A DNA stretch of 64,000 nt from Thermoplasmata archaeon. GTDB lineage: Archaea; Thermoplasmatota; DTKX01; VGTL01. Both the position numbers and the translations under genes were made by a program. Location of the stretch: contig JAWCLH010000013.1 in NCBI GenBank assembly GCA_038851035.1, positions 10,970 to 74,969 of the forward strand, in the 5' to 3' direction. The notes below the pieces were generated by a model. The model was not told the origin of the DNA. It searched no databases and saw only the letters and a list, made by a program, of their open reading frames with translations. Below are positions 2,294-27,000 of this stretch, one piece after another (position 1 is the first letter of the stretch; the number at the start of each line of letters is the position of its first letter).

Positions 2294-2366
2294 GTTCTCA
2301 TCGGGCCCGGTAATGAAGCCGCTGTTAAATAAGATTGCGACGGGCCCCCCGGCCTACACCAGCTTG

Positions 2367-4432: not shown

Positions 4433-4434
4433 CG

Positions 4435-7710: not shown

Positions 7711-7949
7711 CCCCCTCTTTTCGATTTTCGGCGCCTTTCCCCCAGTATGCGCCGAAATCAGGCATTGGCTCCTGGCGTATTTATTGATTGCGCGGGCGCC
7801 CGGAGGCCATTTTTCGGCGGCTGGCCGGCAGTCCAACCGAAATCTTCCTGTGGGGTCAATGCGGGGTCTCAATGGGGGTAAGGGAGCTATACGGGCCCCG
7901 AATCGAGTAGTTAATGGCCAGGGGCCGCCGAAGGGGGGTAGAAACATCG

Positions 7950-8123: not shown

Positions 8124-9137
8124 TTACCTCACCCTCGCCTCCACGACCGCCACGCAGAGCTCCAGCCTCGTCACCGCCTTGAGCTCCAGTCTCACCCAGC
8201 CGTCGCCCGTCTCGATGGAGTAATCGGCACCCATCGTGAGGTTCGTCACGGGGCGGGAGAGGGTCTCATTGAAGTACCGGGCCCACGCGCCTGGGGAAGT
8301 TGTGGTCAGGTTAACGCTTATATTCTTTCCCAGAGACCATTCCGCGCCCTCGTAGACGTTCCAATCTTTCGAGACCACCCTGGTCTCGACCACGACATTC
8401 TCCGTCCCCGCGAGGCTGGTGTAGTCGCCGGTCAGAGACACGAAGAGCATCGAGGCGGAGAGGTTCCCGGCCGCGCCCCGGCTCGCGCTGAAGTGGGGCG
8501 GAGCCCTCATCGCCGCATCGCTCCCGCCCGACACGAGGACGGCCCCCTGCTCGTATATGAAGGTCTGCTGTGATACGTATGCGTTCTGGGAGAAGAATGA
8601 GACGCTCCCCCGGCTCCTTACATAAACGTCCCCGGGGTCGTCGGTGTTGTAAACCGCCAGCGAGCCGTTGAAAGGGTTGGTGACGAGTCTCCCCGCGGTC
8701 TTGGAGAAGCCGAGGAGCGCGCTTGGCTCCCTCCCGAGGGTTACCCTCGTGCTGACACTCACGGGAGTCTCCCTGAGAATCTGGGCATCTATGTTTTCCC
8801 TGAGCGCGTAGAACTGCTCCAGCGTCTCCCTCATGTGCTGGTTCTCATCTATTTCGCCCCACACCGGGACGTAGTACATTATAACGAGAGATAGGACGCT
8901 GCTGATGATCAGGAGCAGCATCACCGCGGTCACCGCGCCCGAGACCGCACGCCCGTTCCAGCGCACCCGGCCCTCCCCGCTCCGTGCTATGCCTCCACCC
9001 CCTCCTCCCCTCCCCGCCACACCTGTCCCCCCTCGAGCCCGCCCACCCTTCTCCTTTCCACGTGCTCCTCCTCGCATCCCTTGGCCCCCGCTCCCGTCGT
9101 CCTCTCCTCTTCCCGCCCTCTGCCACCTCCCTTCCAT
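8124..9137 (-). CDS. minor-pilin-like secreted protein, paralog 1 (N-terminal class III-like signal/TM anchor)
   Basis: Arg-rich N-term, then the hydrophobic helix AVSGAVTAVMLLLIISSVLSLVIMYYVPVW, then a ~260-aa domain. Clear paralog of the two upstream genes; shared motifs are YYVPVW, NID.QIL, VTLG, MYY..Q.Y.YE.GA, and a C-terminal ...AVVE... The N-terminal G/R-rich stretch may be 5'UTR rather than coding. Confidence 0.6.
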   Translation of the reverse strand: MEGRWQRAGRGEDDGSGGQGMRGGARGKEKGGRARGGTGVAGRGGGGGGIARSGEGRVRWNGRAVSGAVTAVMLLLIISSVLSLVIMYYVPVWGEIDENQHMRETLEQFYALRENIDAQILRETPVSVSTRVTLGREPSALLGFSKTAGRLVTNPFNGSLAVYNTDDPGDVYVRSRGSVSFFSQNAYVSQQTFIYEQGAVLVSGGSDAAMRAPPHFSASRGAAGNLSASMLFVSLTGDYTSLAGTENVVVETRVVSKDWNVYEGAEWSLGKNISVNLTTTSPGAWARYFNETLSRPVTNLTMGADYSIETGDGWVRLELKAVTRLELCVAVVEARVR

Positions 9138-9159
9138 TCCCTCTTCCCCTCCCGCCCCC

Positions 9160-10080
9160 TCACATCTCCAGCTGAATCTCCACGACCGCTATCCCGAGCT
9201 CCAGTTCCCTCACCTTGAAGAGCGTAACGTCCACGCCGTTGGGCCTGACGTAAACCTGATAGTCCGCCCCGGTGAGGCCCGTCTCGGGCCTGCCAAGGGT
9301 TGTGTTGAAGAAGTCCGCCCACACGGAAGGGAAGGCGGTAGTGATGTTCAGCCCCAGATTCCTCCCTGCCTCCCAGTCGCCGCCGGCGTAGGAGGTCTTG
9401 TCAAATATGCTTAAGGTGCTCTTCACCCTCATGTCTCCAGAGCCCGAGCGGGTGGCGGGTACACCGGTCAGGGATATCAGGGTGACGCTCGCGCTCAGGT
9501 TCCCGTCGGGCTCCCTGCGCAGGTCGAAGTGCGGCGAGGCCTTCATCACCGCTCTCCCGCCCTGCTCGACGATTATCGCTCCGTTCTCGTAGTGGTAGCT
9601 CTGATCTGGATAGTACATGTTCTGGGGCTGAAAGCCCATCCTCCCTCTCGTCAGACCGAACGTCTCGTTCGGGTCTGTGGCGCTTCCCAGCCTGTACTCC
9701 CCGTCTTCTGGGCTTAGGGAGAGGCTCCCCACGGTCCGGGCGAGGCCGAAGACCGGACCGCCCTCGTCCCCGAGCGTGACCCTGTTGGTCAGTGTCGAGC
9801 TCCTGCCCGCGAGAATCTGGAGATCTATATTCTCCTTGAGCTGAATCATCTGGGACTGAATTCTCTTCATCTGGCGCGCCTCGGCGTCCTTGGTCCATAT
9901 CGGAACGTATATTGCCATGAACATCGAGAGCGCTCCTGCGGCCACGAGGAGTATCAGTAGGGTCACCACGACGCCCGAGGCGCCCCGCCTCTCGCGCCTC
10001 CAGCGGTATCTGAAGGGCCTCTTTGGCGATTCGACGCGCCCGGCGCCCTCGCCTCTCCGAGATGGACGGGGGTGCCTCAT
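9160..10080 (-). CDS. minor-pilin-like secreted protein, paralog 2
   Basis: RRG|ASGVVVTLLILLVAAGALSMFMAIYVPIW N-terminal anchor; homologous to the flanking paralogs; ATGA overlap with upstream paralog 3. Confidence 0.6.
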   Translation of the reverse strand: MRHPRPSRRGEGAGRVESPKRPFRYRWRRERRGASGVVVTLLILLVAAGALSMFMAIYVPIWTKDAEARQMKRIQSQMIQLKENIDLQILAGRSSTLTNRVTLGDEGGPVFGLARTVGSLSLSPEDGEYRLGSATDPNETFGLTRGRMGFQPQNMYYPDQSYHYENGAIIVEQGGRAVMKASPHFDLRREPDGNLSASVTLISLTGVPATRSGSGDMRVKSTLSIFDKTSYAGGDWEAGRNLGLNITTAFPSVWADFFNTTLGRPETGLTGADYQVYVRPNGVDVTLFKVRELELGIAVVEIQLEM

Positions 10081-10979
10081 CTGCTCACCTTCACCTCCAC
10101 GACCGCGAACCTGATGGTCAGGGAGACAATGCCCCTTGCATCCATTCTGAAACCCTCCGGGGTCTGGCTGAGAGACACCTCAGAGCCGGTCAGGTTGGCG
10201 GCCGCGGCCTGCTCCTGAATCGATGCGTTGAGCCACCTGAGCCATCCGTCCGCGTGCCTGGTTGTGGCGTTTAAGGTCACGTTCCTTTCTCCGGGGAAGG
10301 GAATCAGGGTCTCTTCATAATGCAGAACGCGCGTCTCCACGCCCGCGCTCCCGGCCCCCGTCACGGAGACCCCCTCGCCGAAAAGGGCGTATAGGGGTAT
10401 GGTGAGCGTCAGGCTGCCCCAGCGGTCCCTCTTGAACTCTGGCGCCGGGCCCTCCCTGACTGTGGAGTGGCCCTCCTGATGCACCAGCACAGCTCCTCCC
10501 TCGTAGACATACTCTTGCTGCGGGTGGTACATGTTCCGAGAGCGGAAAATCAAGGACCCGCGCGAGAGCGCGAAGAGCTCGTCTGGGCTGTCGGTGTCGC
10601 AGACCTCGAACAGGCTCGCGTTGGCGTCAAAGGATAGCGTCCCGCTAGAAGGCTCGCCCTGAATTCCGAGGAAGGACGTGGTGGTGCCAGAGCTGAGTGC
10701 GATATGGAAGTATAGGCTGCCCGCGGTCTCTCCCTGCGCGAGCTGGTCCTCGACGCCGTCGCGTAGGGCGAAAAACTGGTTCGCAACGCGGCTCATATGG
10801 GCCGCCTCCGCGTCCTTCGACCAGACGGGAACGTAGTACAGAGCCACGGCCGTCAGGATGGTTGTGATAATGATGACGAAGAGTACCGCCGTCACCGCGC
10901 CCGCGACGCCGCTCCGCCGCCCCTGCCACCGTCTCCACGTGCCAGTCGACCTGCGCCTCTTAGTCCTCATCCTTACCAT
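10077..10979 (-). CDS. minor-pilin-like secreted protein, paralog 3
   Basis: RRSGVAGAVTAVLFVIIITTILTAVALYYVPVW N-terminal anchor; homologous to paralogs 1 and 2; overlaps the 3' end of giant gene 1 by 20 nt. Confidence 0.6.
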   Translation of the reverse strand: MVRMRTKRRRSTGTWRRWQGRRSGVAGAVTAVLFVIIITTILTAVALYYVPVWSKDAEAAHMSRVANQFFALRDGVEDQLAQGETAGSLYFHIALSSGTTTSFLGIQGEPSSGTLSFDANASLFEVCDTDSPDELFALSRGSLIFRSRNMYHPQQEYVYEGGAVLVHQEGHSTVREGPAPEFKRDRWGSLTLTIPLYALFGEGVSVTGAGSAGVETRVLHYEETLIPFPGERNVTLNATTRHADGWLRWLNASIQEQAAAANLTGSEVSLSQTPEGFRMDARGIVSLTIRFAVVEVKVSR

Positions 10980-13900
10980 CTCGATTAACCGTGGGGTTCT
11001 TAAACCTATTCAACTCGGTCGCGCCCGCAATGGGTGATGCGCTGGTGGGCCTCGCGCTAGGGCCAGCGCCCCCTCCGTTGGGTCCGGTGCGCCCGTCCCC
11101 TCCCTCTTCGGCAGGCGCCGCGCTCTCTCCAGAACCGCGAATGGAGCCACCGTCCTCGGGCATACCGGTGGCCGCGGGGGCGAGGCCGTCCCCACCGCTC
11201 TCCGGTGCCCCCCCAGCGCCGCGTCCCTGCCCGGTCGTGGTGTTTCCGATTACAGTGACGTCGTCAATGAATATGCCGCCGAAGCCCGCGCCGAGGTCGT
11301 GGTAGTGGAGGGCTAGGTCGTTGCGCGTGACCACCCTGAACTTCAGCAGTATCACGGAGCCCGCCCAGCCTGAGAGGTCACAGTTGAGTCTGGTCAGGGT
11401 GCGGCTGTCGACCCAGTTGTCGCGGATGCCCACGCCGGTGTAGCTCGTCCCGTCGGGCCCCGCGGCCTCGGTGCCCGAGACGTTCCAAGCGGAGCGCGCG
11501 CCCATGTTTAGCTGCCTCCAGCTCACCCCGTTATCGCTCGAGACCTCGACCCTGAAGCCGTCTGGTGGCCTGCCCTCGGCGAACGGGATGTTGAAACGGA
11601 GCTTTGCCGCAAGCCGCGCATCGCGCGCACGGGTGAGGTCAATTGGTATCGTGACCAGAGAGTTGTCTATTCCCCCCTTCAGCGCGTCCATCCCAGGCTG
11701 GGGGTTGTGGTTCCACCAGGCATGCGTCCCGCTGAAGGCGAAAGTGCCGTCAGCATAGTCATCGCCGTAGGTCCGACCGACTTCGACGAGCTCCCACTGG
11801 TCCGTCGTCTGGCCAGTGACCGAAACCGAGTCAGAGCGCCGGACCTTCACCTCGACGTCGTCTATGACCCAACCGTATCCCGTGCCGCCGTCGCAGAATA
11901 TGTAGAGGAATCTCACCCTGACGAATTCATTGCCGACGAAAGGCGTCAGGTCCGCTTCCACGTAATCCCAGCTGAACCTGCCGGCCCCGCTGACGCCATT
12001 CCAGCACCACCTCATGTCGTTCCCAAAGTCGTCCTTCAGATGCGGCGTGCCCCACTCGGAGAGCTTCAGGTTGCTCGGGTAGGGCTGGGTGGGGGCGACG
12101 TATCTGTAGGAGAAGGGGCCGTTGGCGGTGGGGGCCGTCCCGACCATTATCACGCCGCCATTGCTCCCGACCTTCAGGTTGTACTTGTGCCAGAAGGTCA
12201 GCCGCGCGCTCGACGCGCCCTTCAGGCTGAAGGTGGCGGTGGTGAGCCATTTGTCGGAGGGCGTTTCGTCGCCGTCGTTCCAGAAGGGCTGGTCGCCCGG
12301 CTTCTGCGGGGGCGGGACCGGGGTGAGGGCCGTGATCAGAATCTCGTCTATTGACCAGCCGTCGTCGAGGTCGTTGTCGTTGTCCGACTTGAACCTGAAC
12401 CTTATTTTCATCTGGTCCGTGAGGGTGACTGCCCCTCCCTTCGAAATATCGAGCGTTATATTGACCCAGCTCGTGATGTGGGAGTTGTTCGTCCACAACT
12501 GCGTCCAGGTGGCGCCGTTGTCGTTGCTCACCTCTATGTAGGATCTGTCGTCGTTGTCGTCGACGTCGTGCCTGAGCCAGAGGAAGAGCGTCGGGGCGCT
12601 GTGGCCGGTCAGGTTCAGGGCCGGTGTGATCAGACTGTCGTCCTCCTGCTTGTCGTAGTAGTTCGAGCCGCCCGATTTGTAGCACCTGTAGGAGTTGCTC
12701 CCGGCGTACTTGAAGAAGGTATCGTTCTGCCAGACGCCGTCCCCGCCGAGGTTCGTCTTCGTCCACCCGGACAGCGCTCCCTCGAAGCCCTCCTGCAGGA
12801 GCACCACGAGGCCCCTCCCCTCATCCCCTCCGCCCCCCTCGCCTCCGGCGCCCCTCGAGAGCCAGCTTGGCTCGCCAGTCAGTAGGACGTCGTCTATTGA
12901 CCAGCCCTCCGCTGTCTCAGCCACGTCTGCCCACATCCTAAAAGCGATTTTCATCTGGGATGTTGGCTGGATGACGTTAACATCCAGGTTTGAGACCATT
13001 GTACCAATGGCATTCCTTGGATTTCCATAATATCCCAACCATAAATTATTTGCCCAGCTTCTGACACCATACCATGTGAGGCCATTGTCGTTGCTAATGA
13101 AGACGTAGCCAAGGTCAGCGTTCCAGGATGATTCCCCGCCCCAGTAATAGGTGCCCCGGAATACCGCGGGCCTGTGCCAGAAGCTCAGCCTGAGGTTCAC
13201 GTAGCCCGAGGCGTCAATGGTGGGCGACACGAGCCAGTCGTCGTCGTTGTTCCCGTACCTGCCGGTGGCGGTGTCGTAGCAGCGCCACGCGGATAGGCCA
13301 CTGTTCCGGAAGTCGCCGGTCACGTACCTCCACGTGCTCCCCGCGGGGCCGTTGTTGACGACGCTCCAGCCTCCCGCGCCCATCTCCATATTGTCGTAGA
13401 AGAGCACCACCCGTTCCCCCGCCCCACCGGGGTTCTCCGACGCCCCAGCTCCGCCCCTACCCAGTGTCTGGGCCATCTCTTCGATTTGCTTGGATATGTT
13501 TGCGAATACCCACTCCAGCTGCTCCGCGTTGGGCGCGAAGTAGTACCATCCCCCGCCCCCGCCGGTCAGATTGGCCTGCGCCGCGAGGGCTATCATGTCC
13601 GGCTGCGAGGTTCCGACGACGTCCGCACCGTAGCCGATGACGAATATCGGGACCGGCGCGGTCGTGACGGTGGCGAAGGCCGTTGCTCTGCCCGCCGGTA
13701 CACTTGGGGAATCTGAGTTGCTCTGTCCGTCTGTGAGAATCACCATACATCTTATCCTGTTAGCCGCACCATAGTCCCTGATATAAGTGAAACTAGTTGT
13801 AACAGCGTTCCAGAACGGAGTGCCACCCCCGATTCTCATCTTTGCAATGGCATCATGGAGCGCGGACTTATTACTGGTCAAGGGCTGATCTAATTGGGTG

Positions 13901-16900
13901 TAGTAGGGAATCAACGGGGGATTTGGATAGCTGTTGTACGGTCTGTAGGTCGAGAACTCCGCCACCGCGCCCCTGTCCTGCGGCCAGAGCTTGTTCACGA
14001 ACTGCATCATCGCGGTCTTAGCCCCCTCAATCCTCGCGACCGCGTCCCAGGCCATCGAGCCGGTGACATCGCAGGTCAGTATGACGTCAACCGGTGTCCT
14101 CCTCTGGGCCTTTGGCTCGTGCATGTAGTAGGCGCTGTCGCGGCTATGGAACTGGGATGTTATATTGGGCAGGCTCATATTGTCTGTAGTGTTGCGCCAC
14201 CCATTGAATTCGGACCACTCGGCCACTATGTCGGTGTAGACGTCGCCGGCGTCTATGTACTCGAGCGCCGTTTCTCCATTAAGGCGCACAATGGTCGACT
14301 CGTGCGTCCACTTGTCCGCCCCCTCCTCCATGTCGTCGTAGAAGAAGTAGCACTGGATAGTAAGGGAGGCGACGTTGTTGAACTTGAAGACCTCGCTCAG
14401 GATGCCGTCGGGGTCGACCGAGACCGATATTGTGCGGCTGCCCGCGAATATCGGTGTCCAGATGATCTCAGCCACTATCATCGAGCTCCTCTCGACGCTC
14501 ACGCTGACGGAGTTGATGACCGTGCTCCCGTCCGAGAACCGCACGACGGCGTCGCCCCGGGTCCCGCCGGGGTTCCAGATGCGCGCCTTCAGCATGTAGG
14601 ACTCGCCCATCATGGGCTTCATCTCCCTGAGAGGCTGGAGGGTTGTGTGGAATAGGTCGAGGTGGGTCACCCTGAGCTCGGTCCTTGCGTCGTACATGTT
14701 GAACCATCGAAGCACCATGTAGGCGAGCTCGGAGAGGTACTGGTTGTTTCCTTCGTAGGAGATGAAGGACGGGTCCCAGGCGGTGAAGACCGTCCTGAAG
14801 CTGAAGGTGGTGTTCTCGTACCGAATTCCGTTGAACGGTCTAGAGAGGATGATGTCGTCCACGGCGCCCTCGCCCTCATTCATCACAACCTCGAACCCGT
14901 CGACCTGCCTGATTGTCCTGCCGCCCAGCCCGCTCCCCTCCCTGAGGTCCCTCTGCAGGTCGCGGGTCACGGTGTGCCACCTTCCATCGGCGGTGCCGGC
15001 GCCAAGCCCGTGGTGCACGGGCCCTGCGCCCAAGAGGTCCGTGTCGCTGTTTGTGTAGGTCAGGGCGATGTGGGTGCCCAGCGTGTCGGTCACGTGCCAG
15101 ACGAATGTGTAGTTGATGTCGAACCTGAAGCTCCAGCTCGCAGTCAGCCTCTCCCTCTCGTTCCAAGGCAGGTCGTTCGGGTTCTGGTCGCTGCCGAAGG
15201 CGAAGTCGCCGATAATGAAGTATGTGTCCTGCGCGCTCGCCCCTGTCCTGGCGAGGCGAATCACGCTCGAGCCCCGCTGAAAATCAAAAACATTGTTTAT
15301 AGAGGCTGAGGTTAGTGGCGGCACCACCCTCGCCGCCCACCCCTCCGTGTCGCCGTCCTCTGCGTCCTCAAGAAAGACCTCGTTCGGAGAGTCCGGGGAG
15401 GGCATCGGGGACTGGTAGGTCACTCCCCGGCCGTCGATATAGGGCAGCAGCAGTCTCCCCTTGTCGGCGGAGGTCGGCTGGGCTGGGTAGCGGACTCCGT
15501 GGGCTATTGGGTCGAGGTACGCGCCCTCTATCATGCCCGGCGTCCTCGCGCTGCCCGGGTCCACGACGCTCCCGATGCGCAAGTAATCCCTGTAGAACGG
15601 TTCCGCGCCGCCGGCGTAGTTCCCGTCAGGAATCGCGCGCGGGCCAAGGAGCCAGAGATACCTGCCGTCCCCTCTTCCAAGGAAGGAGGCGAGGCTCGTC
15701 CTGTCCGTGGCGGTGAGAGCGTTCGCCTGCTCCCCGGCGACCCATATTAAGGCGTTGTAAAGCGACATCTTTGCCGGGTCCGGGCCGTCTTCGCCTACAT
15801 TCACCACGTGCAGGTCGTACTGATACCCCAGCTCGTCAAGGGCGCGGGTCACATTGGCGGTGGAGTTGTAGGAGCTCCCCCCGTTGTTGGCGCTCCCGTC
15901 GTCGTCTATAACGAGCGTGCCGTATCTCACGTATAGGAACTCACGGTTCATGCTGGCCGAGACTTTGTTGTTGTTCTCGTTTATCTCTGATATGTAGTCG
16001 TAGGGGTCCACCTTTCCTGTTATCGTATGGGCCCCGATTCTATCCGCGGTCCAGACCATCGAAATTTTTATGAAGCCGCCCCCGCCCGGGACCCTGAGGC
16101 TGGCGTTGGTCGTGTCCTGGGGAATCCATATTTCCGAGGTCGGGGGGTTGAATGTGGTCAGGGAGCCGTTCAGCTCTATCATGACCGACTTCGGAGCGAA
16201 GGTCGCGCCGTCGATGTAGAACGCGACCTGCAGCTGGGGCCGGCTGACGTCGAGGGGCTCGTCGCTCAGGCCGTTGTTGCGGAGGTAGATGGTTATGTTC
16301 ACATCCTCCATGAACGCCGGCGCGCTCTTGTCGAACTGCTGGTCGGAGACCGCCAGGTCCCTGCCCCAGCTCGCTAGACAGCCGAACCAGTTGAGCATCT
16401 CGTATGTAATCATCGCCCTTTCGTTGGCCTCGGCGACCCGAGAGAGCTCGAAGCCGAAGAAGGCGGTCTGGAACGTGTTGGCTCCGGGTGTGCCATTAGT
16501 CGTTGCATTGAATAGGAGCCCGAGAGCCCTGTAGGGGTCCCCGGCCTCCGTGAAGGCGGGAACCGCTTTGCCCGAGAGGGGCTCCATGAAGTCCGCCCTG
16601 TCTGGAAGTCCGGAGGGAAAAGGCTTGGCCACGACGAAGCTCCTGCCGCTCAGAATTCCATTGCCGAGAATCTGTTGGGGCGTGTAGCGGTCGTAGAATG
16701 TGGTCGGCGTCAGTGGCGAGACCTTCATATAATTATTGAGGAACGGGTCGCCGCGCCCCAGACTGCTCAGGACGTCCTGACCTATCAGCCACAGCTTGCC
16801 CCCGTTGTTTAAAAATGTGGCCAGGTTGCTCTTGTCGTTTGAGGTTAGGGTCCCCACGCTCTCGTAGCCCGTGAGCCATATCACGAGGTCGTAGTCCCTG

Positions 16901-18252
16901 AGGGGGTGGGTCCCGCCGTCGTAGAGAGGCCCATCACCCGTTGGGACTACATGGGTCGTGTAGGAGGCCGCAACAGCGTCCAGCGACTCCTTCATATACA
17001 TTCCCACGTCCCTCACCGAGCCCTCGATGGCCCGGTCGTCGTCCACGAGCAGAATCGTCGGCAGGACCTCGAGCTGAATCGACTGCTCGTCGGGGAGCCC
17101 GTATGGGTCGGAGGCGTTGACAATCAGAGTGTGGATGCCGCCCCGCGGGGCCCTCCAGACAATGATCGAGTAGGACTCTCCTCCAACGGGAATGCTCAGG
17201 TTGTGCTCCACCCCGACCATGTCTCCGGGCGAGGTGCCGTCGAGGTAGTAGGTGACGTTGGCGAGCGCCGGGACGCCGCCCTGATTTGCGATGCGGGCGG
17301 TGATGTTAACATAGGCTCCATGTACGGGGTGCCTTGGATATACGTCAATCGAGCGAATTCTGAGGACCGGGTTGCCAGGGTGCATGGCGATGACGGTGTA
17401 GCCCACGCGATAACTCTTCGTGGCGTAGTTATTCCCGTAGCGAGACTCGTTCAGGAGGGGAACAACCCTCACAGTGATGGTGTGGATGCCCCAGCTCCCC
17501 GCGGGGATTTTGTAAACCGTGGACAGGTTGGCACTGGAGCTCCCGTTGAGCGCCAGGGTGGCATTCATCACTGGGAAGCTCTTCCGGTCTATGGTCGAGT
17601 AGTCGCTGATTCTGACCACGAAGTCGCCCGAGTAGGCGGAGCCGTAGTTGTGCACCGTCACATTGACCGTCACATTGTCCCCGGCCATCGGAGCGTTCGT
17701 GTCGTTGAATGTGGCGTTATTAAATAGAACGACTATATCCGCGGGCGTCAGGCCGAGGTCTGGGAGCCCCCCCGTCTCCGGTCCCTTCTGAAGAACCTGG
17801 TCCAGGAGAATCACGCTGTGCGCCGTGTCTATGACCTGTATCTTCAGCCTGTCGGATGGGCTTGTGTTGAAGGGCATGGTCCAGCGCTCCCCCATCCCGA
17901 GGGACGCGTCCCCACCGGTCCCATCGGTGAGGTTGTAGCCCGACACGAACGTCTCGTTTACGAAGAGAGCAAAACGTGTCGTGTGGTTGTGGAGGGTGTC
18001 ACCGCCCATGTGCGTGATTGTGATTATCTGGCCGTCATAGGCCGCCTCGAGGTCCACCGTGACGCTGTCAGACGGTCCTTGCACTGTGCTGAGCTGGAGC
18101 GCCAGCGCAGTCACCATCACCACGGACATCGCGACGAGCAGGAGGTCGCCGATGACCTCGGCCGCGCCTCTGCGGTCCCCGGAGATCCTCCGGAATTCCG
18201 CGGTTCCTCCAGCGACTGGTCCGAGTGTCCTTACGCTCCTCCACGAGCTCAT
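10960..18252 (-). CDS. giant (2430 aa) type-IV-pilin-like adhesin with VWA domain, CARDB-like and MAM-like repeats (paralog C, most downstream)
   Basis: N-terminus ...RRGAAEVIGDLLLVAMSVVMVTALALQ matches the archaeal pilin N-terminal/class III signal consensus (R-G|A-x-E-V-I-G-x-I-L-L). VWA domain with MIDAS motif (VDVILTCDVTGSM...). Repeated beta-sandwich domains ending in GW(A/S)IDD(I/V). Two copies of a ~200-aa L(V/I)DDD...DLVIW.TG...GGKLWL(I/L)G domain. Dense N-x-S/T sequons. ATGA overlap with upstream paralog. Confidence 0.8.
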   Translation of the reverse strand: MSSWRSVRTLGPVAGGTAEFRRISGDRRGAAEVIGDLLLVAMSVVMVTALALQLSTVQGPSDSVTVDLEAAYDGQIITITHMGGDTLHNHTTRFALFVNETFVSGYNLTDGTGGDASLGMGERWTMPFNTSPSDRLKIQVIDTAHSVILLDQVLQKGPETGGLPDLGLTPADIVVLFNNATFNDTNAPMAGDNVTVNVTVHNYGSAYSGDFVVRISDYSTIDRKSFPVMNATLALNGSSSANLSTVYKIPAGSWGIHTITVRVVPLLNESRYGNNYATKSYRVGYTVIAMHPGNPVLRIRSIDVYPRHPVHGAYVNITARIANQGGVPALANVTYYLDGTSPGDMVGVEHNLSIPVGGESYSIIVWRAPRGGIHTLIVNASDPYGLPDEQSIQLEVLPTILLVDDDRAIEGSVRDVGMYMKESLDAVAASYTTHVVPTGDGPLYDGGTHPLRDYDLVIWLTGYESVGTLTSNDKSNLATFLNNGGKLWLIGQDVLSSLGRGDPFLNNYMKVSPLTPTTFYDRYTPQQILGNGILSGRSFVVAKPFPSGLPDRADFMEPLSGKAVPAFTEAGDPYRALGLLFNATTNGTPGANTFQTAFFGFELSRVAEANERAMITYEMLNWFGCLASWGRDLAVSDQQFDKSAPAFMEDVNITIYLRNNGLSDEPLDVSRPQLQVAFYIDGATFAPKSVMIELNGSLTTFNPPTSEIWIPQDTTNASLRVPGGGGFIKISMVWTADRIGAHTITGKVDPYDYISEINENNNKVSASMNREFLYVRYGTLVIDDDGSANNGGSSYNSTANVTRALDELGYQYDLHVVNVGEDGPDPAKMSLYNALIWVAGEQANALTATDRTSLASFLGRGDGRYLWLLGPRAIPDGNYAGGAEPFYRDYLRIGSVVDPGSARTPGMIEGAYLDPIAHGVRYPAQPTSADKGRLLLPYIDGRGVTYQSPMPSPDSPNEVFLEDAEDGDTEGWAARVVPPLTSASINNVFDFQRGSSVIRLARTGASAQDTYFIIGDFAFGSDQNPNDLPWNERERLTASWSFRFDINYTFVWHVTDTLGTHIALTYTNSDTDLLGAGPVHHGLGAGTADGRWHTVTRDLQRDLREGSGLGGRTIRQVDGFEVVMNEGEGAVDDIILSRPFNGIRYENTTFSFRTVFTAWDPSFISYEGNNQYLSELAYMVLRWFNMYDARTELRVTHLDLFHTTLQPLREMKPMMGESYMLKARIWNPGGTRGDAVVRFSDGSTVINSVSVSVERSSMIVAEIIWTPIFAGSRTISVSVDPDGILSEVFKFNNVASLTIQCYFFYDDMEEGADKWTHESTIVRLNGETALEYIDAGDVYTDIVAEWSEFNGWRNTTDNMSLPNITSQFHSRDSAYYMHEPKAQRRTPVDVILTCDVTGSMAWDAVARIEGAKTAMMQFVNKLWPQDRGAVAEFSTYRPYNSYPNPPLIPYYTQLDQPLTSNKSALHDAIAKMRIGGGTPFWNAVTTSFTYIRDYGAANRIRCMVILTDGQSNSDSPSVPAGRATAFATVTTAPVPIFVIGYGADVVGTSQPDMIALAAQANLTGGGGGWYYFAPNAEQLEWVFANISKQIEEMAQTLGRGGAGASENPGGAGERVVLFYDNMEMGAGGWSVVNNGPAGSTWRYVTGDFRNSGLSAWRCYDTATGRYGNNDDDWLVSPTIDASGYVNLRLSFWHRPAVFRGTYYWGGESSWNADLGYVFISNDNGLTWYGVRSWANNLWLGYYGNPRNAIGTMVSNLDVNVIQPTSQMKIAFRMWADVAETAEGWSIDDVLLTGEPSWLSRGAGGEGGGGDEGRGLVVLLQEGFEGALSGWTKTNLGGDGVWQNDTFFKYAGSNSYRCYKSGGSNYYDKQEDDSLITPALNLTGHSAPTLFLWLRHDVDDNDDRSYIEVSNDNGATWTQLWTNNSHITSWVNITLDISKGGAVTLTDQMKIRFRFKSDNDNDLDDGWSIDEILITALTPVPPPQKPGDQPFWNDGDETPSDKWLTTATFSLKGASSARLTFWHKYNLKVGSNGGVIMVGTAPTANGPFSYRYVAPTQPYPSNLKLSEWGTPHLKDDFGNDMRWCWNGVSGAGRFSWDYVEADLTPFVGNEFVRVRFLYIFCDGGTGYGWVIDDVEVKVRRSDSVSVTGQTTDQWELVEVGRTYGDDYADGTFAFSGTHAWWNHNPQPGMDALKGGIDNSLVTIPIDLTRARDARLAAKLRFNIPFAEGRPPDGFRVEVSSDNGVSWRQLNMGARSAWNVSGTEAAGPDGTSYTGVGIRDNWVDSRTLTRLNCDLSGWAGSVILLKFRVVTRNDLALHYHDLGAGFGGIFIDDVTVIGNTTTGQGRGAGGAPESGGDGLAPAATGMPEDGGSIRGSGESAAPAEEGGDGRTGPNGGGAGPSARPTSASPIAGATELNRFKNPTVNRDGKDED

Positions 18253-21200
18253 TCTGAATCACCTCCAGTCAGTTCCCTTTCAAATCTCGCGGGTGCGGCG
18301 CTCGCAGGAACCTGAATTCTAGGCACGCTCGTCCCTGCCGGTCTCGGGCCGAGGATACGGTCCCCCGAACCCTCCCCGTGGGAGGGCGCGCCAGCCCAGT
18401 CGTCCATGACTCCTGTGGCGCCAGCTCCGGGAGCAGCGTCATCGCCCGCCGTCCCCGGGAGGCCCCTCCCTCCAGTGGTGGAGTTCCCGAAAACAGTGAC
18501 GTCGTCTATGTATAAACCGCCCCAGCCCGTCACCGACTCGTAGTGGTTGATCGTGTCCGCGCGGGTCACGACCCTGAACCTCAGGTGAATCACCGAGCCC
18601 GCCCAGCCCGTTAGGTCGCAGTTGAGCCGGGCGAGCGATGTGGAGAGGACCCAGTTCCCTCCGATGTTAACGCCCGTGAAGCTCTTCCCGTCCGGGCCCG
18701 CGGGCTCCGTCCCCGACACCTTCCAGGCCGCGCGGACGCCGAAGTGAATCGGCCTCCACGTTACTCCTCCATCGTCCGAGACCTCGACCCTGAAGCCATC
18801 GGGGGGCCTGCCCTCCGTATAGTTGATGTTGAATTTGAATTTGCATATCAGGGTGGCGTCTCTCGCGTTGGTGAGGTCGATGGGCGGGGTTATCAGGTAG
18901 TTGTCCAGCCCGCCCTTCAGATAGTCCACGCTCGCGCTCGGGTTGTGGCAGAGCCAGGCGTACTGCCCGCTGTAGGCATCGGCGAAGTCGCCTCCGCCAC
19001 CCAGAACATCGCCCTTCTTGACGAGCTCCCACTGGTCGGTCGAGGTCGTCTGAACGGCCGCGGAGTTGCTACGGGTCACCTTGACCTCCACATCGTCAAT
19101 GAGCCAGCCCTTCCCGCCCCCCCCTCCAGCGCGAATGTAGGCGAACATCACCCTGACGTACTGCTGGCCGCAGAACTTGTTCAGGCTGACCTCCGCATAC
19201 TCCCAGTCAAATGTTCCCCTGCCGCTGATGCCGTTCCAGCACCAGCGAATCTCGTTCCCGAGGTCGTCCAGGCGCGTCACGCTCGTCCTTATGTTGCCGG
19301 TGTAGGACTGGGACGGTGTCACGTATTCGTAGGTAAAGGTCACGTTGTTCACTGACGTCCCCACGAGCACGACCGCGCCGCTCCAGCCCATCGAGAGGTG
19401 GTATTTGTGCCAGAAGCAGAGCCTGGCTGATGTCACGCCCTGGAGGCTGAAGGACTGAGTTAGGGCGTAGAGGTCCTCGGCGCCCGGAATGTTGGGGGAG
19501 CGGCCTGAGGCCGGGCCCTCCGGTCCTGAAGAGTCTGACGGGGCCTGGCTCTTCCCGGGGGTCGTGGGCGCGCTCTCCGAGCCTCCATCCTCTGGAGCTC
19601 CTCCGCCTCCGCCGGCCCCGCCGCCGTCGAACGAGCCGCCCGCGCTCCTCGCGAGGGAGAGCGAGGCCAGCTCTTCCGCAAGCTCGTCGAAGACGCCCAT
19701 CAGGTCAGCGCTGCTGGGGGCGTAAAAGTACTTCCCCTTTGGCGATGTCGTAGCGATGCGATAGAGGTTGTACTCGGGCGTGCCCGACTCGAGCGAGCCG
19801 GGGCCGGTGTAGACCGAGCCCGCGCGGTCGAAGTTGCTGACGGACGATATTGTGCTGAAATATGGCAGGTTCGGGTCGTGCTCGAGGTTTATGCCGATGG
19901 TGAAGACGGTCATCGGGGCGTTCAGGAGGCCGTCGGCGGTGTTGCAGCCGCCGGTGTAGGTTTGGTTGTACCAGTAGCCCGCGACGCCCGCCTTGCCGAA
20001 GTATTTCCCTATGTGATAGGTGAAATAGCCCCTCGTCCCCCAGTTTATCCAAGGGCAGAATCCCGGGTTGGCCAGATTCCCGTTGCTGCCCTTCTCGATG
20101 TTGTTGTAATCATCTGGGTTTTTCGGAGGGTCCTTGATGTTGGAGTCGTCGCCCTGGTAGTCCTGACCGTCGCACAGCGCAACCACCACGGGAACCCTGT
20201 CCGCGGAGCGGTAGTCCCAGGTGTAGTTCATCGCCTCGCCGAATGTCTGCCATATCGGCGTCCAGGCCTGGCACGAGAGGGTATTGATTGTGTTTACGAC
20301 CGTGGTCCTCCCGGCGGCGTTGAGCTGCGTGAAGCCGAGGACGAACCTCTGTCCCGGGTTCTGCGCGAGCTTGAATATCGCCACCCTCGAGTCGTTTCCG
20401 AGGCCCTGTATCAGGGCGAGCGCGGCGTTCTTCTCGTCCTGCAGGGGCTGGCCCGCCATCGAGTTGGAGGTGTCGAAAACGAGGGTCAGGTCCACCGGCG
20501 GCCCCGGCTCCCTGAGCTTGAAGGAGGAGTTCATCGAGTGGAAGTCGTCGAAGGTCTGGCGGAAGCCGCGGAGCTCCTGCCATGACGACGCCACGTTCGT
20601 GGACACGTTCCCTATGTCCATGTACTCGAGGGCCGACTCTCCGTTAATGCGCACGATCGTCGACTCGTGCCTCCAGTGCCCCGTCCCGTTCTCCATGTCG
20701 TCGAAGAAGAAATAGGTCCGGAGCCCCACGGAGGCGCGGTCGTTGAACCTGAATATCTCTTTGACCACTCCGTCGGGGTCCATCACGACCGATATCACTC
20801 TCTCACCGGCGAAGAGCGGGGTCCAGATGATCTCGGTCATGGTCGTTCCGCCGGGCGCTATCGAGGCGAAGGCCGTTCCTATGACCGTACTCCCGTCCAG
20901 GAAGCGCACTGAGCAGTCGCCCCTAGAGCCGCCCTCGTTGCGTAGGGACGCCTTCACAACGTAAGAGCTCCCCATGGAAGGGCTCATCCAGGAGAGGGGG
21001 GTCATGTTCCCGAAGTACAGGTCCACTTCGGTCACCCTGAGCTCTATGCGGATGTCGGGCATCCCGAGCCAGTGCAGCGCGAGGTAGGTGAACTCGGCCT
21101 CGTACTCCTCCTCGCCCACCCCAACCCTCCCGGCTATGAATGACAGGTCCCAGCCGCACCAGATGGTCTTGTAACCCATTGACGGGGATTCGTAGCTGAC

Positions 21201-24023: not shown

Positions 24024-27000
24024 TCCATCTCACCTCCCCTAGGGCGGACCAGAGCCGGGGTCGCGGGCACAGCGACCAGCCCCAAGGGCCCGAGCATCAT
24101 GCCCCGCAGGCCCGCGCCCTCCTCTCCCGATGCCGGGTCAGGGCCGGAGCTCTCGACCGGGCGGCTATCGGCCCCCTCGTCTCCATAACAGACCTTCCCC
24201 CCCGCCCCAACCTCCTCCTCAGCCTCCGCGCCGGAATGGCAAGCGCTCGTGACTGACCTCTCCACGGGTCCGGCGGCCCTCCCGCCCGTGGTCGTGTTGC
24301 CAACAACCTTGATATCGTCAATATAGACTCCTCCGAAGCCCGCGAGCGCGCTATGGTAATGGTCGGCGATGTCGGTCCTTGTGACCACCCTGAAGCGCAG
24401 AAGTATGACCGAACCTGCCCAGCCTGAGAGGTCGCAGTTCAGCCTCGACATCGTGCCGCTGGCGACCCAGTTACCGCCGAGGTCCACGCCCGTCGCGCTC
24501 GTCCCGTCCGGACCCGCGGCTTCTGTCCCGGAGACCTTCCAGCCCGAGCGGACGCCGCGGTTCAGGGCGCGCCAGGTGATCCCATTGTCGCTCGAGACCT
24601 CAACCCTCAGGCCGTCGGGTGGCCTGCCGTCAAGTGAGTTGATGTTGAACTTCAGCCTCGCGTCTAGCCGGGCGTCGAGGGCGTTCGTCAGGTCGATGGG
24701 AATTGTAGTCAGGCTGTTGTCTATGCCAGCCGCGAGATAGTCAATGCCGGGTGAAGGGCTGTGGCAGAGCCAGGCGCGCTCGCCGCTGTAGGCATCGGCG
24801 ATGTCCCCACCCCCGCCAAGAGCATCGCCCTTGCGCACCAGCTCCCACTGGTCCGGTACCGACGCGGAAACTGGCACGGCATTGGCGCGCTCCACCCTGA
24901 CCTCGATATCGTCTATCGCCCACCCCATTCCCGTCCCTCCAGTGCAGTAAAAATAAGCGAAGCGAATTCGTACAAACTGGTTTCCTATGAAAGGCGTGAG
25001 GTCAGCCTCGACGTAATCCCACGTGAATCTGCCCGAGCCGCTCACGCCATTCCAGCACCAGCGGATGTCGTTTCCGAACCCGTCTTTTAGGTGCGGTGTG
25101 CCCCACTGCGCAATCTGGAGGTTACCGGTGTAGGGCTGGGTGGGCGTGATGTAGCGGTAGGTATATGGGCCGCTCTCCGAGGCAGCGGTACCGACCATCA
25201 GGACCCCCCCGTTCGCCCCAGCTTTCAGATCGTACTTGTGCCAGAAGGTCAGTTTGGCCGAGGAGACGCCCGCTAGGCTGAACGTCTTGGTGGTCAGGTT
25301 CCTGTCGCGCGGGGTCTCGTCCCCGTTCATCCAGTATCGAATTCCCTCGCCAGCCAGAGGGACGTCGGAGGTGACCAGGACCTCGTCCACGACCCAGCCG
25401 GTGGCCACGCTGGAGCCGTCCGAAGTGAACTGGAACCTTAGCACCATCGACGACGTCGGTGTCACCGCGCCGCCCGCGGTCAGGTCGATGTAGCACTCGT
25501 ACTGCCAGTTGTTGGAGTCTTTGTTCGTGCTCCAGACCTGCGTCCAACTCGTCCCTCCGTTGTTGCTCACGTATACCCTGCACCAGTCGCCATTGTTCCC
25601 AAGGTCAGGACAAGACCAGAACGCCAGCCGCGGGTTCTGGCGGCCCGAGAGGTCGAAGACGGGCGATATGAGGCTGTTGTTGTCGTTGTTGTCGTAGTTG
25701 CCCGTGCCGGTGTTGAATGAGCGGTAGGCGAAGGAGCCGTTGTGCTTGATGCCGCTGTGGCGGACCCACTGCGAGCCCGCAGCTCCTCCGTTGACCGTGG
25801 TCCATACCGGAGTGGCGTTCTCGAAACTGTCGTAGAAGACCGTGACCTGCCCCCTCTCCAAGGCGCCCCCCTCGGGCGTGGAGCGGCCGAGGGTCTGGGC
25901 GAGCTGCTGAATCACTTGTGCTATTTGAGAGTATATCTGGAGAAGCTGGTCGCTCGTTGGGGCGTAGTAGTAGCTCCCGCCCTCTGACGCATCGGCGGCG
26001 TCCTGCAGATTGGCGGTGTTGACGTCCCCGCCAAGGCCGATTGTGAAGAGGGGCCCGTGCATCGTGGCGATGAGCGCAAGGGTGTAGTCCCTAGTGTACG
26101 GCGGGTTGTCGTAATTGAACTGCCCGTCTGTGAGAAATACCACGGCCCTCATCGCCCCCGGCCTCGAGTTCTGGATGGTGTAGTTGGTGCCCTGGGACAT
26201 CGCGGTCCAGCCCGCGGTCCATCCGCCCGCCGACAGCTCCTTGATGGTGTTGATGCAGGCGCTCTTGTTGAAGGTGAAGCCCAGGTCCATCGTCACCCCG
26301 CTCGAGAAGGACCATACCGATATTCTGTCTATTGACTCAAGCTGCGTTATGAAGAACATCGCGGCGTTCTTGGCGTCCTGAATCTTCTGGCCGCCCATCG
26401 AGCCCGAGCGGTCGATGATGATGGTGCAGTCCACAGGCCTCCTGATGTCCTGCCTCGACTCGTGCATGTAGAAGGCCCTCGGCCAGCTCCTATACACAGA
26501 GGTTATGTTGGGCAGGCTCGCGTTGTCCGTGGTATTGTACCAGCCGTCCATCTCCTGCCAGCCCTGTATTATATTCGTGTTCGCCACGCCCGGGTCGAGG
26601 TATTCGAGAGCCGACTCGCCGTTTATCCGCAGAACCGTCGCTTCGTGCCTCCAGTTCTTCGTCCCGCTCTCCAGGTCGTCGTAGAAGAAGTAGCAGTCGA
26701 GGCCGACTCCCGCCACATTGTTGAACTTCATCGTCTCGCTCACCGCGTTGTCTGGGTCAACGGTTGCGCCTATGACCCTGCTGCCTGCGAAGAGAGGCCT
26801 CCAGACGATCTCGGCCATCGCCCTCCCGTTGGCCTCGACCGACACCGTGACCGAGTCGATGACTGTGGTCCCGTCGGTGAAGCGAACGACTGCATCGCCC
26901 CTCGTTCCCCCTAGGTTCCAGACCATCGCCTTGAGGACGTAGGATTCGCCTAGCATCGGCTTCATCTCCCTCAGCGGGACCATGCCCGAGTAGTAGAGGT

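What the first reader, a model, noticed from the sequence alone, without database searches (positions are those of the whole stretch)
8124..10979. Triplet of paralogous ~300-aa anchored proteins resembling a minor-pilin set
Three consecutive genes encode proteins with an Arg-rich N-terminus, then G/A-S-G and a ~25-aa hydrophobic helix ending in YYVPVW/IYVPIW, then a conserved ~250-aa domain ending in ...AVVE(V/I).... This resembles a class III signal peptide followed by a pilin-like globular domain. Three distinct minor pilins encoded together with the giant pilin-headed proteins echo bacterial GspIJK/PilVWX priming complexes. They have no obvious match to archaellin, FlaF/FlaG or known archaeal adhesion pilins, so they may be a new family.
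Basis: partly seen in the sequence, partly recalled or inferred. Interest (0 to 1): 0.65.

Follow-up and report, generated by a model that had tools for sequence, protein, structure and literature searches.

The report
Three paralogous DUF7289 pilin-like proteins
The three genes are real, diverged copies of an already catalogued but unstudied archaeal pilin-like family (Pfam DUF7289). Their relatives sit next to pilus motors or giant pilin-headed adhesins, so this is a new member of a known kind, not a new family.

Summary
Three consecutive minus-strand genes (10979-10077, 10080-9160, 8966/9137-8124) are paralogs (BLASTP E 2e-35 to 7e-66). They close an operon that begins with three giant Pilin_N/CARDB/VWA proteins. 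The window comes from a Thermoplasmata MAG.

The pilin reading is supported:
- Position -1 before the hydrophobic stretch is G/A in 119 of 120 diverse relatives.
- AlphaFold2 (pLDDT 92 and 90) gives a 60-residue N-terminal helix plus a beta-rich head, the pilin lollipop.
- The N-terminus aligns to the giants' Pilin_N region (hhalign E 2.5e-5).

The "new family" claim is not supported. Copy p1 scores above the Pfam DUF7289 threshold, and NCBI names a 72%-identical protein "DUF7289 family protein". The family has at least 1335 clusters at 50% identity.

In 120 related genome loci, 63 have the gene directly beside a pilB ATPase gene. The usual order is DUF7289-pilB-pilC-pilC-pilB. That is the layout Makarova et al. 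(2016) list for arCOG02911, their "predicted minor pilin", in Aciduliprofundum. Another 23 loci have it beside Pilin_N-headed proteins, as here.

The head domain has no detectable solved structural relative. Function as a minor pilin that partners the giant adhesins is inferred, not shown.

The parts
10077..10979 (-). p3, a DUF7289-family pilin-like protein (300 aa). Its predicted cleavage site is RRSG|VAGAV.
   Evidence: ORF. Pfam DUF7289 22.6 bits, E 9e-5, below the gathering score of 27. Orthologs at 54-75% identity. AF2 model with pLDDT 92, helix 23-82 plus beta head.
10821..10979 (-). p3 residues 1-53: Arg-rich N-region, G24 at position -1, hydrophobic helix, and the YYVPVW motif.
   Evidence: S occupies -2, so the strict FlaFind-type rule is not met here; R occupies -3 and -4.
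9160..10080 (-). p2, a DUF7289-family pilin-like protein (306 aa). Its predicted cleavage site is RRG|ASGVV, and its start overlaps the p3 stop by 4 nt.
   Evidence: (22.2 bits, E 1.1e-4).
9895..10080 (-). p2 residues 1-62: Arg-rich N-region, R32-G33 at positions -2/-1, hydrophobic helix, and the IYVPIW motif.
8124..8966 (-). p1, a DUF7289-family pilin-like protein, using the probable true start (GTG at 8966, 280 aa). Its predicted cleavage site is GRA|VSGAV.
   Evidence: Pfam DUF7289 36.2 bits, above the gathering score of 27. P0177 (98% identical) is 280 aa, and P0178 (72% identical) is named 'DUF7289 family protein'. AF2 model with pLDDT 90.5, helix 5-64 plus beta head.
8967..9159 (-). Purine-rich (GGAGG-like) spacer between p2 and p1. 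The part from 9137 to 8967 reads through as a G/R-rich N-terminal extension of the p1 ORF and is probably not translated.
   Evidence: Sequence. The extension is not conserved among P0177, P0178 and P0179 and is absent from 287-288 aa orthologs.
10960..18252 (-). G3, a giant Pilin_N-headed protein (2430 aa) with CARDB, VWA and Reelin/MAM-like domains, encoded immediately upstream of p3.
   Evidence: RG|AAEVIGD.
18249..24023 (-). G2, a giant Pilin_N-headed protein (1924 aa) with CARDB, VWA and MAM domains.
   Evidence: RG|VSEVLGD.
24020..30583 (-). G1, a giant Pilin_N-headed protein (2187 aa) with CARDB, VWA, MAM and Cleaved_Adhesin domains. It is the first gene of the operon.
   Evidence: An AT-rich TATA-like stretch lies upstream.

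Best explanation
p1, p2 and p3 are three anciently duplicated members of the archaeal DUF7289 family (very probably arCOG02911). They are type IV pilin-like proteins.

Proposed mechanism:
1. Each is made as a preprotein with a short, positively charged N-region.
2. It inserts into the membrane through the hydrophobic first half of a roughly 60-residue helix.
3. A class III (prepilin) signal peptidase cuts it after the conserved G/A.
4. A PilB/PilC machine encoded elsewhere in the genome extracts it from the membrane.
5. It enters a pilus or short pseudopilus as a low-abundance (minor) subunit. The helix lies in the filament core, and the roughly 220-residue, probably N-glycosylated beta head faces outward.

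Because the three genes close an operon of three giant Pilin_N-headed CARDB/VWA/MAM proteins, their most likely job is to co-assemble with those modular adhesin pilins and help nucleate or present them at a pilus tip. This would be functionally analogous to bacterial minor pilins acting with the VWA protein PilY1, or to TadE/F with TadG.

Shown: gene reality, paralogy, family membership, signal-peptide-like motif, predicted pilin architecture, and genomic linkage of the family to pilB/pilC and to Pilin_N-headed proteins.

Inferred: cleavage, incorporation into a filament, minor rather than major role, and partnership with the giants.
For: Family:
- Pfam DUF7289 hit above threshold for p1 and sub-threshold hits for p2 and p3.
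- Paralogy at E 2e-35 to 7e-66.
- A profile of the three finds 1335 cluster representatives at E<=1e-3 and 719 at E<=1e-10. Most of the distant hits listed carry PF23960.

Signal peptide:
- In 124 diverse members, position -1 is G/A in 119 of 120, with D/E/K/R before it and V/Q/I, A/S, G/S/N after it, followed by about 22 hydrophobic residues.
- P51 is invariant (124/124) and E58 nearly so (123/124). W53, H61 and M62 are highly conserved.
- hhalign to the giants' Pilin_N N-termini gives Prob 75%, E 2.5e-5.

Architecture: AF2 models for p3 (pLDDT 92, pTM 0.85) and p1 (90.5, 0.83) both show a 60-aa N-terminal helix plus a beta-rich head.

Extracellular head: N-x-S/T sequons are 2.5-4 times commoner than expected, and all lie in the head.

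Context:
- An exact-motif scan of GTDB genomes found at least 120 loci, against about 2 expected by my own calculation. Nearly all are Thermoplasmatota.
- 75 of 120 contain pilB/pilC, and 63 have the gene within 300 nt of pilB on the same strand.
- 28 contain Pilin_N-headed ORFs, and 23 of those are adjacent.
- Examples: pilB-pilC-Pilin_N(144 aa)-DUF7289-VWA protein (L007); alternating [Pilin_N-VWA]-[DUF7289] pairs (L008); three large Pilin_N proteins followed by one DUF7289 (L004, L005, L006, L009).

Literature:
- Makarova 2016 (PMC4858521) describes arCOG02911 as 250-550 aa, FlaFind-positive, all-beta, prone to duplication and a hypothesised minor pilin.
- Its Aciduliprofundum boonei locus runs arCOG02911, then an ATPase, with a second clade-2 ATPase three GI numbers further on. 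This fits the commonest layout found here.
Against: - No pilB, pilC or prepilin peptidase lies within the 64-kb window among the ORFs scanned, so the link to a pilus machine is by homology only.
- p3 has S, not a charged residue, at -2, and its orthologs have S, G or R there.
- Pfam Pilin_N itself does not hit p1-p3 at E<=1.
- No solved pilin or minor-pilin structure matches the head.
- The commonest partner of the family is the ATPase gene, usually with one copy per machine. That also fits a role as a machinery-proximal component.
- Giant-to-DUF7289 ratios vary (3:3 here, at least 3:1 in L004-type loci, 2:2 in L008), so strict cognate pairing is not general.
- No experimental data exist for any member.
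Confidence: 0.6

Rival explanations
1. These are components of the assembly machine rather than of the filament. A processed or unprocessed pilin-like protein would stay at the base of the pilus, for example docked on the PilC platform as a primer, stator or alignment subunit.
For: - In 63 of 120 related loci the gene sits directly beside pilB, typically one copy per pilB-pilC-pilC-pilB unit.
- The best conserved residues (YVPxW...EAxHM) lie on the helix just outside the membrane, where a contact with a conserved machine part would be expected.
- The machine-adjacent copies are more conserved (mean identity 0.40) than the adhesin-adjacent ones (0.335).
Against: - The window copies belong to the adhesin-adjacent context class. 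For 31 of 34 members of that class the nearest relative is in the same class, and for none is it machine-adjacent.
- They are encoded with giant pilins and with no machine gene nearby.
- The canonical -1 G/A motif and the 60-aa pilin-type helix argue for a filament-competent subunit.
Confidence: 0.2
2. These are major subunits of their own filament, so that DUF7289 proteins polymerise into a distinct thick pilus.
For: - In many DUF7289-pilB-pilC-pilC-pilB loci no other pilin-like ORF was detected in the 8-kb block.
- The predicted fold is a complete pilin lollipop.
Against: - Where a small (about 140 aa) Pilin_N pilin is present, it precedes DUF7289 in the position expected of a major pilin (L007, L026, L034, L047, L066).
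- Three diverged paralogs at 28-38% identity in one operon are atypical for a major subunit.
- The one Thermoplasmatales pilus solved so far, with the same dual-ATPase and split-platform machine, is built from a different pilin encoded remotely (PMC12448462).
- Makarova 2016 assigns major-pilin roles to other arCOGs.
Confidence: 0.1
3. These are signal-anchored surface proteins with no pilus involved. The N-terminal helix would simply tether them, and the giants, in the membrane of an archaeon without an S-layer, forming part of a glycoprotein coat or acting as accessory or maturation factors for the giant adhesins.
For: - No pilus machine lies in the window.
- Sequons are enriched in the heads.
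- Thermoplasmatales are reported to carry an unordered glycoprotein layer instead of an S-layer (PMC12448462).
- Bindosome-type class III proteins that are not classical pili are discussed in the 2026 preprint.
Against: - The family-wide linkage to pilB/pilC (75 of 120 loci) is hard to explain without a machine.
- Near-invariance of the -1 G/A (119 of 120) implies selection for peptidase processing.
Confidence: 0.08
4. This is a genuinely new family unrelated to any described pilin family.
For: - p2 and p3 alone fall below the Pfam gathering score, and their orthologs carry no precomputed Pfam domain.
- The head has no solved structural relative.
Against: - p1 passes DUF7289, and p2 and p3 are its clear paralogs and hit the same model at E about 1e-4.
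- The name is already used by NCBI.
- The family matches arCOG02911 by description and synteny.
Confidence: 0.02

Closest known systems
Pfam DUF7289 (PF23960), an archaeal family of unknown function
   Same: The model covers the N-terminal helix and most of the head of p1 (36.2 bits, profile positions 1-208 of 238). p2 and p3 hit it at E about 1e-4. Most distant homologs carry the domain, and NCBI names a p1 relative 'DUF7289 family protein'.
   Different: p2 and p3, with their orthologs, are divergent enough to fall under the curated threshold, so databases leave them unannotated. Triplication in one operon is uncommon: only 3 of the 120 surveyed loci held two or more copies.
arCOG02911, 'predicted pilin family protein', a hypothesised minor pilin of euryarchaeal clade-2 (system 2) type IV pili (Makarova et al. 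2016, PMC4858521)
   Same: The size (250-550 aa), the FlaFind-type signal, the all-beta head and the tendency to duplicate all match. So does the position immediately upstream of a clade-2 ATPase in Aciduliprofundum, with a second ATPase three genes further on. This is the layout I find in most Thermoplasmatota relatives.
   Different: Identity with arCOG02911 was not tested by sequence, because no arCOG profile or member sequence was available. The window locus has no ATPase or TadC gene. It is instead a pilin-only cassette with three giant adhesin-like pilins.
Bacterial minor-pilin sets with a VWA adhesin (PilVWX/FimU with PilY1; GspHIJK; TadE/TadF/TadG)
   Same: Several distinct pilin-like proteins are encoded together with large VWA-containing proteins. 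All have prepilin-type N-termini. A tip or priming role is plausible.
   Different: There is no sequence or fold match. Foldseek against the PDB gave nothing at E<=1e-3. A family profile against PDB sequences gave only the GspG N-terminal helix at E=1.8, which is not significant. The three proteins here are paralogs of one family, not three different families. The adhesins carry their own pilin heads. This is analogy only.
ArlF/ArlG (FlaF/FlaG) and archaellins
   Same: They share an N-terminal hydrophobic helix followed by a beta-rich extracellular domain.
   Different: No Pfam, NCBIfam or PDB-profile hit was found, and no FlaF/FlaG or archaellin structure appears among the listed Foldseek matches. 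No archaellum genes are nearby.

Membership tests
Pfam DUF7289 (PF23960) | Whole-protein HMM score at or above the gathering score of 27 bits | tested here: met
   p1 scores 36.2 bits, E 6.2e-9. p2 (22.2 bits) and p3 (22.6 bits) are below threshold. They are nevertheless full-length paralogs of p1 at E 7e-66 and 4e-43, so membership for them is transitive.
Archaeal type IV pilin-like (class III signal peptide) proteins | Class III signal peptide: charged residue at -2, G/A at -1, then a hydrophobic stretch of about 20 residues near the N-terminus | tested here: met
   p1 has R-A|VSG and p2 has R-G|ASG, both followed by about 25 hydrophobic residues. p3 has G at -1 but S at -2, with R at -3 and -4, so it partly deviates. 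Family-wide, -1 is G/A in 119 of 120. FlaFind itself was not run.
Archaeal type IV pilin-like (class III signal peptide) proteins | Pilin architecture: a long N-terminal alpha-helix followed by a globular beta-rich head | tested here: met
   AF2: p3 has helix 23-82 and p1 has helix 5-64, each followed by a beta-rich head. pLDDT is 92 and 90.5.
Archaeal type IV pilin-like (class III signal peptide) proteins | Cleavage by PibD/ArlK/EppA and incorporation into a filament | not testable with these tools
   This needs biochemistry or proteomics. No peptidase gene was found among the window ORFs scanned.
Archaeal type IV pilin-like (class III signal peptide) proteins | Genomic linkage to a PilB/FlaI-type ATPase and a PilC/TadC platform | tested here: inconclusive
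   Met for the family: 75 of 120 related loci contain these genes, and 63 have the family gene directly adjacent to pilB (L007). Not met in the window, which has no such genes in 64 kb.
Pfam Pilin_N (PF07790) | HMM hit to the archaeal pilin N-terminal domain | tested here: not met
   p1-p3 give no hit at E<=1, whereas the three giants do hit. Profile-profile comparison with the giants' N-termini shows remote similarity only (Prob 75%, E 2.5e-5).
arCOG02911 | Sequence membership in the arCOG | not tested
   No arCOG profile or member sequence was available.
arCOG02911 | Published descriptors: 250-550 aa, class III signal, all-beta head, duplications, and a position adjacent to a clade-2 ATPase/TadC | tested here: met
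   Sizes are 280-306 aa. The signal motif is shown and the beta head. The gene is triplicated here. The layout DUF7289-pilB-pilC-pilC-pilB fits the A. boonei entry.
ArlF/ArlG (FlaF/FlaG) | Sequence or fold similarity to FlaF/FlaG, and a location in an archaellum operon | tested here: not met
   No Pfam or NCBIfam hit. No PDB profile hit at E<=10 apart from two irrelevant ones. No Foldseek hit. No archaellum genes in the window.
Bacterial minor pilins (GspI/J/K, PilV/W/X) | Sequence or fold similarity to solved minor pilins | tested here: not met
   Foldseek against the PDB gave no match at E<=1e-3 for either model. NCBIfam ComGE scored E 0.083 for p2 only. GspG scored E 1.8 on the helix only.

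The most novel reading that the evidence does not exclude
DUF7289 proteins may be dedicated adaptor pilins, the archaeal functional counterpart of the bacterial minor-pilin/PilY1 priming complex. One conserved copy would sit with each dual-ATPase pilus machine as its initiator. Additional, faster-evolving copies would travel with cassettes of giant modular adhesin pilins and match each adhesin to the filament. The 3+3 operon in this window would then be a plug-in 'adhesin display' module served in trans by the machine. Its head domain has a fold with no solved relative.
Probability: 0.3. Interest if true: 0.6.

Novelty: new member of a known kind. Interest (0 to 1): 0.33.

Why it matters
Archaeal type IV pili are understood mainly through their major pilins. 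What starts a filament, and how huge adhesins are mounted on it, is unknown.

This family has at least 1335 clusters at 50% identity and is overwhelmingly from uncultured Thermoplasmatota. In the loci surveyed it was usually the only pilin-like gene detected next to the dual-ATPase, split-platform pilus machine. It also recurs next to pilin-headed adhesins.

A recent structural paper on a Thermoplasmatales pilus with that machine layout does not discuss such a component in the text I read. No member has been studied, and the head has no solved structural relative.

The window itself adds only a triplicated example. The useful outcome is a concrete, testable candidate for the initiator or adaptor subunit, with a cultured entry point in Aciduliprofundum boonei.

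Tried and rejected
- NCBIfam scan: only noise, with ComGE at E 0.083 and others.
- Literature searches for DUF7289, PF23960 and sibling DUF names found nothing. arCOG02911 appears in only one paper.
I replaced it with a degenerate DNA motif scan. The counts of neighbours are therefore lower bounds on a biased sample.
- A family profile against PDB sequences gave no significant hit.
- FlaF/FlaG, archaellin, S-layer and transporter-accessory readings were rejected for lack of any hit.
- The 337-aa reading of p1 was rejected in favour of a 280-aa product.
- Strict 1:1 pairing of giants and DUF7289 proteins was considered but is not general, because L004-type loci have at least three giants and one DUF7289.
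Full report
**What is there**

The window is high-GC (about 63%) archaeal DNA. RpoA is split and RpoB is unsplit. The p3 protein is identical to an NCBI protein from a "Thermoplasmata archaeon" MAG.

On the minus strand an operon-like run extends from 30583 to 8124. It starts with three giant proteins: G1 (24020-30583, 2187 aa), G2 (18249-24023, 1924 aa) and G3 (10960-18252, 2430 aa). Each has an archaeal Pilin_N head followed by CARDB, VWA and MAM/Reelin-like domains. Three genes of about 300 codons follow: p3 (10077-10979), p2 (9160-10080) and p1 (8124-9137 as the longest ORF). G3/p3 overlap by 20 nt and p3/p2 by 4 nt.

**Checking the observation**

The three proteins are unmistakable paralogs:

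| Pair | BLASTP E-value |
|---|---|
| p3/p1 | 4e-43 |
| p3/p2 | 2e-35 |
| p2/p1 | 7e-66 |

Identity is 28-38% over almost the full length.

Each copy has its own orthologs at 54-75% identity in other metagenome assemblies. Two long contigs (L001, L002) carry the same arrangement. At least two giants are followed by the three paralogs in the same order. The same flanking genes then follow: AsnC, DHH, TraB, M50, WD40 and formiminotransferase. The triplication is therefore old and maintained.

One correction applies to p1. Its first 57 codons are a purine-rich, G/R-rich stretch, and the equivalent stretch differs completely in its closest relatives. A 98%-identical NCBI protein is called at 280 aa, and more distant orthologs are 287-288 aa. 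A GTG at 8966 with a GGAGG-like sequence just upstream gives MRWNGRA|VSG.... I take 8124-8966 as the likely gene.

**Family**

Pfam DUF7289 (PF23960) hits p1 above its gathering score (36.2 against 27 bits). It hits p2 and p3 below the score (22 bits, E about 1e-4).

A profile of the three paralogs, searched without a word index against 1.84 billion cluster representatives, found 1335 proteins at E<=1e-3 and 719 at E<=1e-10. A search with 124 diverse members returned proteins most of which carry PF23960. A 72%-identical relative of p1 is already named "DUF7289 family protein" by NCBI.

The family is therefore large and catalogued, though uncharacterised. No paper in the library mentions DUF7289.

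**Is it pilin-like?**

Across 124 diverse members the N-terminus follows a class III signal-peptide pattern:
- Charged or polar residues at -3 and -2.
- G or A at -1 in 119 of 120 sequences.
- V/Q/I at +1, A/S at +2 and G/S/N at +3, followed by about 22 hydrophobic residues.

Immediately after the hydrophobic stretch comes a family signature, YVPxW-x4-EAxHM:

| Residue (p3 numbering) | Conserved in |
|---|---|
| P51 | 124/124 |
| E58 | 123/124 |
| H61 | 110/124 |
| W53 | 101/124 |
| M62 | 98/124 |

In the window the sites read GRA|VSG (p1), RRG|ASG (p2) and RRSG|VAG (p3). The S at -2 in p3 departs from the strict rule, and its orthologs have S, G or R at that position.

Pfam Pilin_N does not hit the three proteins directly. 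A profile-profile comparison of the family with the N-termini of 16 neighbouring Pilin_N-headed proteins aligns the two signal and helix regions (hhalign Prob 75%, E 2.5e-5).

AlphaFold2 with a 100-sequence alignment gives confident models for p3 (pLDDT 92, pTM 0.85) and p1 (90.5, 0.83). Both show a 60-residue N-terminal helix followed by a beta-rich head containing one or two short helices. This is the classical pilin lollipop with an unusually large head.

N-glycosylation sequons are 2.5-4 times commoner than expected, and all lie in the head. This fits an extracellular location.

**What the head resembles**

**Genomic company of the family**

Six distant relatives on long contigs showed three context types:
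- Four loci (L004, L005, L006, L009) have three large (830-1290 aa) Pilin_N/Laminin_G_3 proteins followed by one DUF7289 gene.
- L007 has pilB(PilB3_C)-pilC-Pilin_N(144 aa)-DUF7289-CLIPPER/VWA protein.
- L008 has two alternating pairs of [Pilin_N-CLIPPER-VWA protein]-[DUF7289].

I then scanned one genome per GTDB species for DNA encoding the exact motif YVPxW(x4)EAxHM. About 2 are expected by chance for 18 fixed and 3 two-fold positions in 1.2e12 sites (my own calculation). Nearly all are Thermoplasmatota MAGs, with single hits in Aenigmatarchaeota and Syntrophoarchaeum.

| Context in the 8-kb block | Loci (of 120) |
|---|---|
| pilB and/or pilC present | 75 |
| DUF7289 within 300 nt of pilB, same strand | 63 |
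| Pilin_N-headed ORF present (92-1940 aa) | 28 |
| Pilin_N-headed ORF directly adjacent | 23 |

The usual machine-linked order is DUF7289-pilB-pilC-pilC-pilB. These counts are lower bounds on a motif-biased sample.

The two contexts correspond to two sequence groups:

| Context class | Nearest relative in the same class | Nearest relative in the other class | Mean identity within class |
|---|---|---|---|
| Adhesin-adjacent | 31 of 34 | 0 | 0.335 |
| Machine-adjacent | 51 of 56 | 0 | 0.40 |

Mean identity between the two classes is 0.256. The window's three copies belong to the adhesin-adjacent context class.

Some family members are themselves modular. They carry Laminin_G_3 and DUF2341 domains alongside the DUF7289 region (P0048, P0071).

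**Relation to the literature**

Makarova et al. 2016 (PMC4858521) describe arCOG02911 as the one pilin-like protein shared by both euryarchaeal clade-2 pilus systems. They give it as 250-550 aa, prone to duplication, usually FlaFind-positive and all-beta, and they hypothesise that it is a minor pilin.

[quoted passage not shown] In Aciduliprofundum boonei it is a 300-aa gene immediately upstream of an ATPase, with a second clade-2 ATPase three GI numbers further on. That fits the commonest layout in my survey.

The dual-ATPase, split-platform layout is also the machine of the Cuniculiplasma divulgatum pilus, whose major pilin is a different, remotely encoded protein (PMC12448462).

I could not test arCOG02911 membership by sequence. 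The identification rests on size, description and synteny.

**Most likely mechanism**

Shown:
- Three real, conserved paralogs of DUF7289.
- A class III-type N-terminus and a predicted pilin architecture.
- Family-wide linkage to pilB/pilC and to Pilin_N-headed adhesin-like proteins.

Inferred:
- The preproteins insert with the Arg-rich N-region inside the cell.
- A prepilin peptidase cuts them after the -1 G/A.
- A PilB/PilC machine encoded outside the window extracts them.
- They enter a pilus or short pseudopilus as minor subunits.

They are co-operonic with three giant VWA-bearing pilins, and relatives repeatedly pair with such proteins. The best guess is therefore that they nucleate or adapt the display of these modular adhesins at a pilus tip. 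This is analogous to, but not homologous with, bacterial minor pilins plus PilY1, or TadE/F plus TadG.

Rivals:
- A machine-proximal component. This is favoured by the tight pilB linkage and by the conserved membrane-proximal motif.
- A major subunit of its own filament.
- Simple signal-anchored surface proteins.

Weaknesses:
- No pilus genes or peptidase were found in the 64-kb window.
- The -2 residue of p3 is atypical.
- Giant-to-DUF7289 ratios vary between loci.
- No experimental data exist.

**Verdict**

The pilin-like interpretation is supported at the level of sequence, predicted structure and context. The suggestion of a new family is not supported. This is a triplicated, adhesin-linked set of members of a known but unstudied family (DUF7289, very probably arCOG02911). 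Interest is modest for the window itself. The family as a whole is a good candidate for the unknown initiator or adaptor subunit of Thermoplasmatota pili.

Noticed in passing
window 10960-30583 (-): There are three paralogous giant proteins (2187, 1924 and 2430 aa). Each has a Pilin_N head with a conserved acidic residue at +3 (VSE/AAE), followed by CARDB, VWA and MAM/Reelin/Cleaved_Adhesin-like domains. They are modular 'adhesin pilins'. The DUF7289 proteins have G/S/N at the +3 position instead.
   Followed up: partly
window 8967-9159: A purine-rich, GGAGG-repeat spacer lies between p2 and p1. It reads through as a non-conserved G/R-rich N-terminal extension of the p1 ORF. Related high-GC MAGs have different extensions of similar composition.
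   Followed up: partly
window 30661-33228 (+): An 855-aa HTH (Crp/MarR-like) plus STAND/NACHT-type ATPase plus TPR protein is encoded divergently, only about 77 nt from the start of the giant-pilin operon. It may be a regulator. An AT-rich TATA-like stretch lies in the shared intergenic region.
   Followed up: no
window 7198-7947 (-) and 1397-7196 (-): An Lrp/AsnC regulator lies directly downstream of p1. DHH/DHHA1, TraB/PrgY, M50 peptidase, WD40 and formiminotransferase genes follow. The whole block is syntenic with the pilin operon in L001 and L002.
   Followed up: partly
window 58634-60101 (-), 57954-58038 (-): A complete archaeal 16S rRNA gene and one tRNA lie next to rpoB. No 23S rRNA matched anywhere in the window, so the rRNA genes appear to be unlinked.
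   Followed up: no
window 40721-46029: A sugar-modification cluster is present: hexapeptide acyltransferase, NAD-dependent epimerase/dehydratase, DegT aminotransferase, and GT4 and GT2 glycosyltransferases. It could supply glycans for the sequon-rich surface proteins.
   Followed up: no
P0048, P0071, P0060, P0101 (family members): These DUF7289-family members are expanded to 530-1840 aa by Laminin_G_3 and DUF2341 domains. Makarova et al. 2016 note DUF2341 in PilY adhesins. P0101 matches the family profile but shows no Pfam DUF7289 hit.
   Followed up: partly
L010-L129 (GTDB genome loci): The recurrent layout DUF7289-pilB-pilC-pilC-pilB has two ATPases and a split platform. This matches the Cuniculiplasma CdiP machine. 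The 2025 paper on that machine does not mention an adjacent pilin-like gene in the text I read.
   Followed up: partly
L086, L128, L097: Motif-positive contigs are binned as Nitrospirae, Deltaproteobacteria and Promethearchaeota MAGs. These are probably mis-binned Thermoplasmatota contigs, though transfer is possible.
   Followed up: no
L023, L058, L123: In some loci the DUF7289 gene is divergent from, rather than downstream of, a large (956-1940 aa) Pilin_N-headed gene.
   Followed up: no
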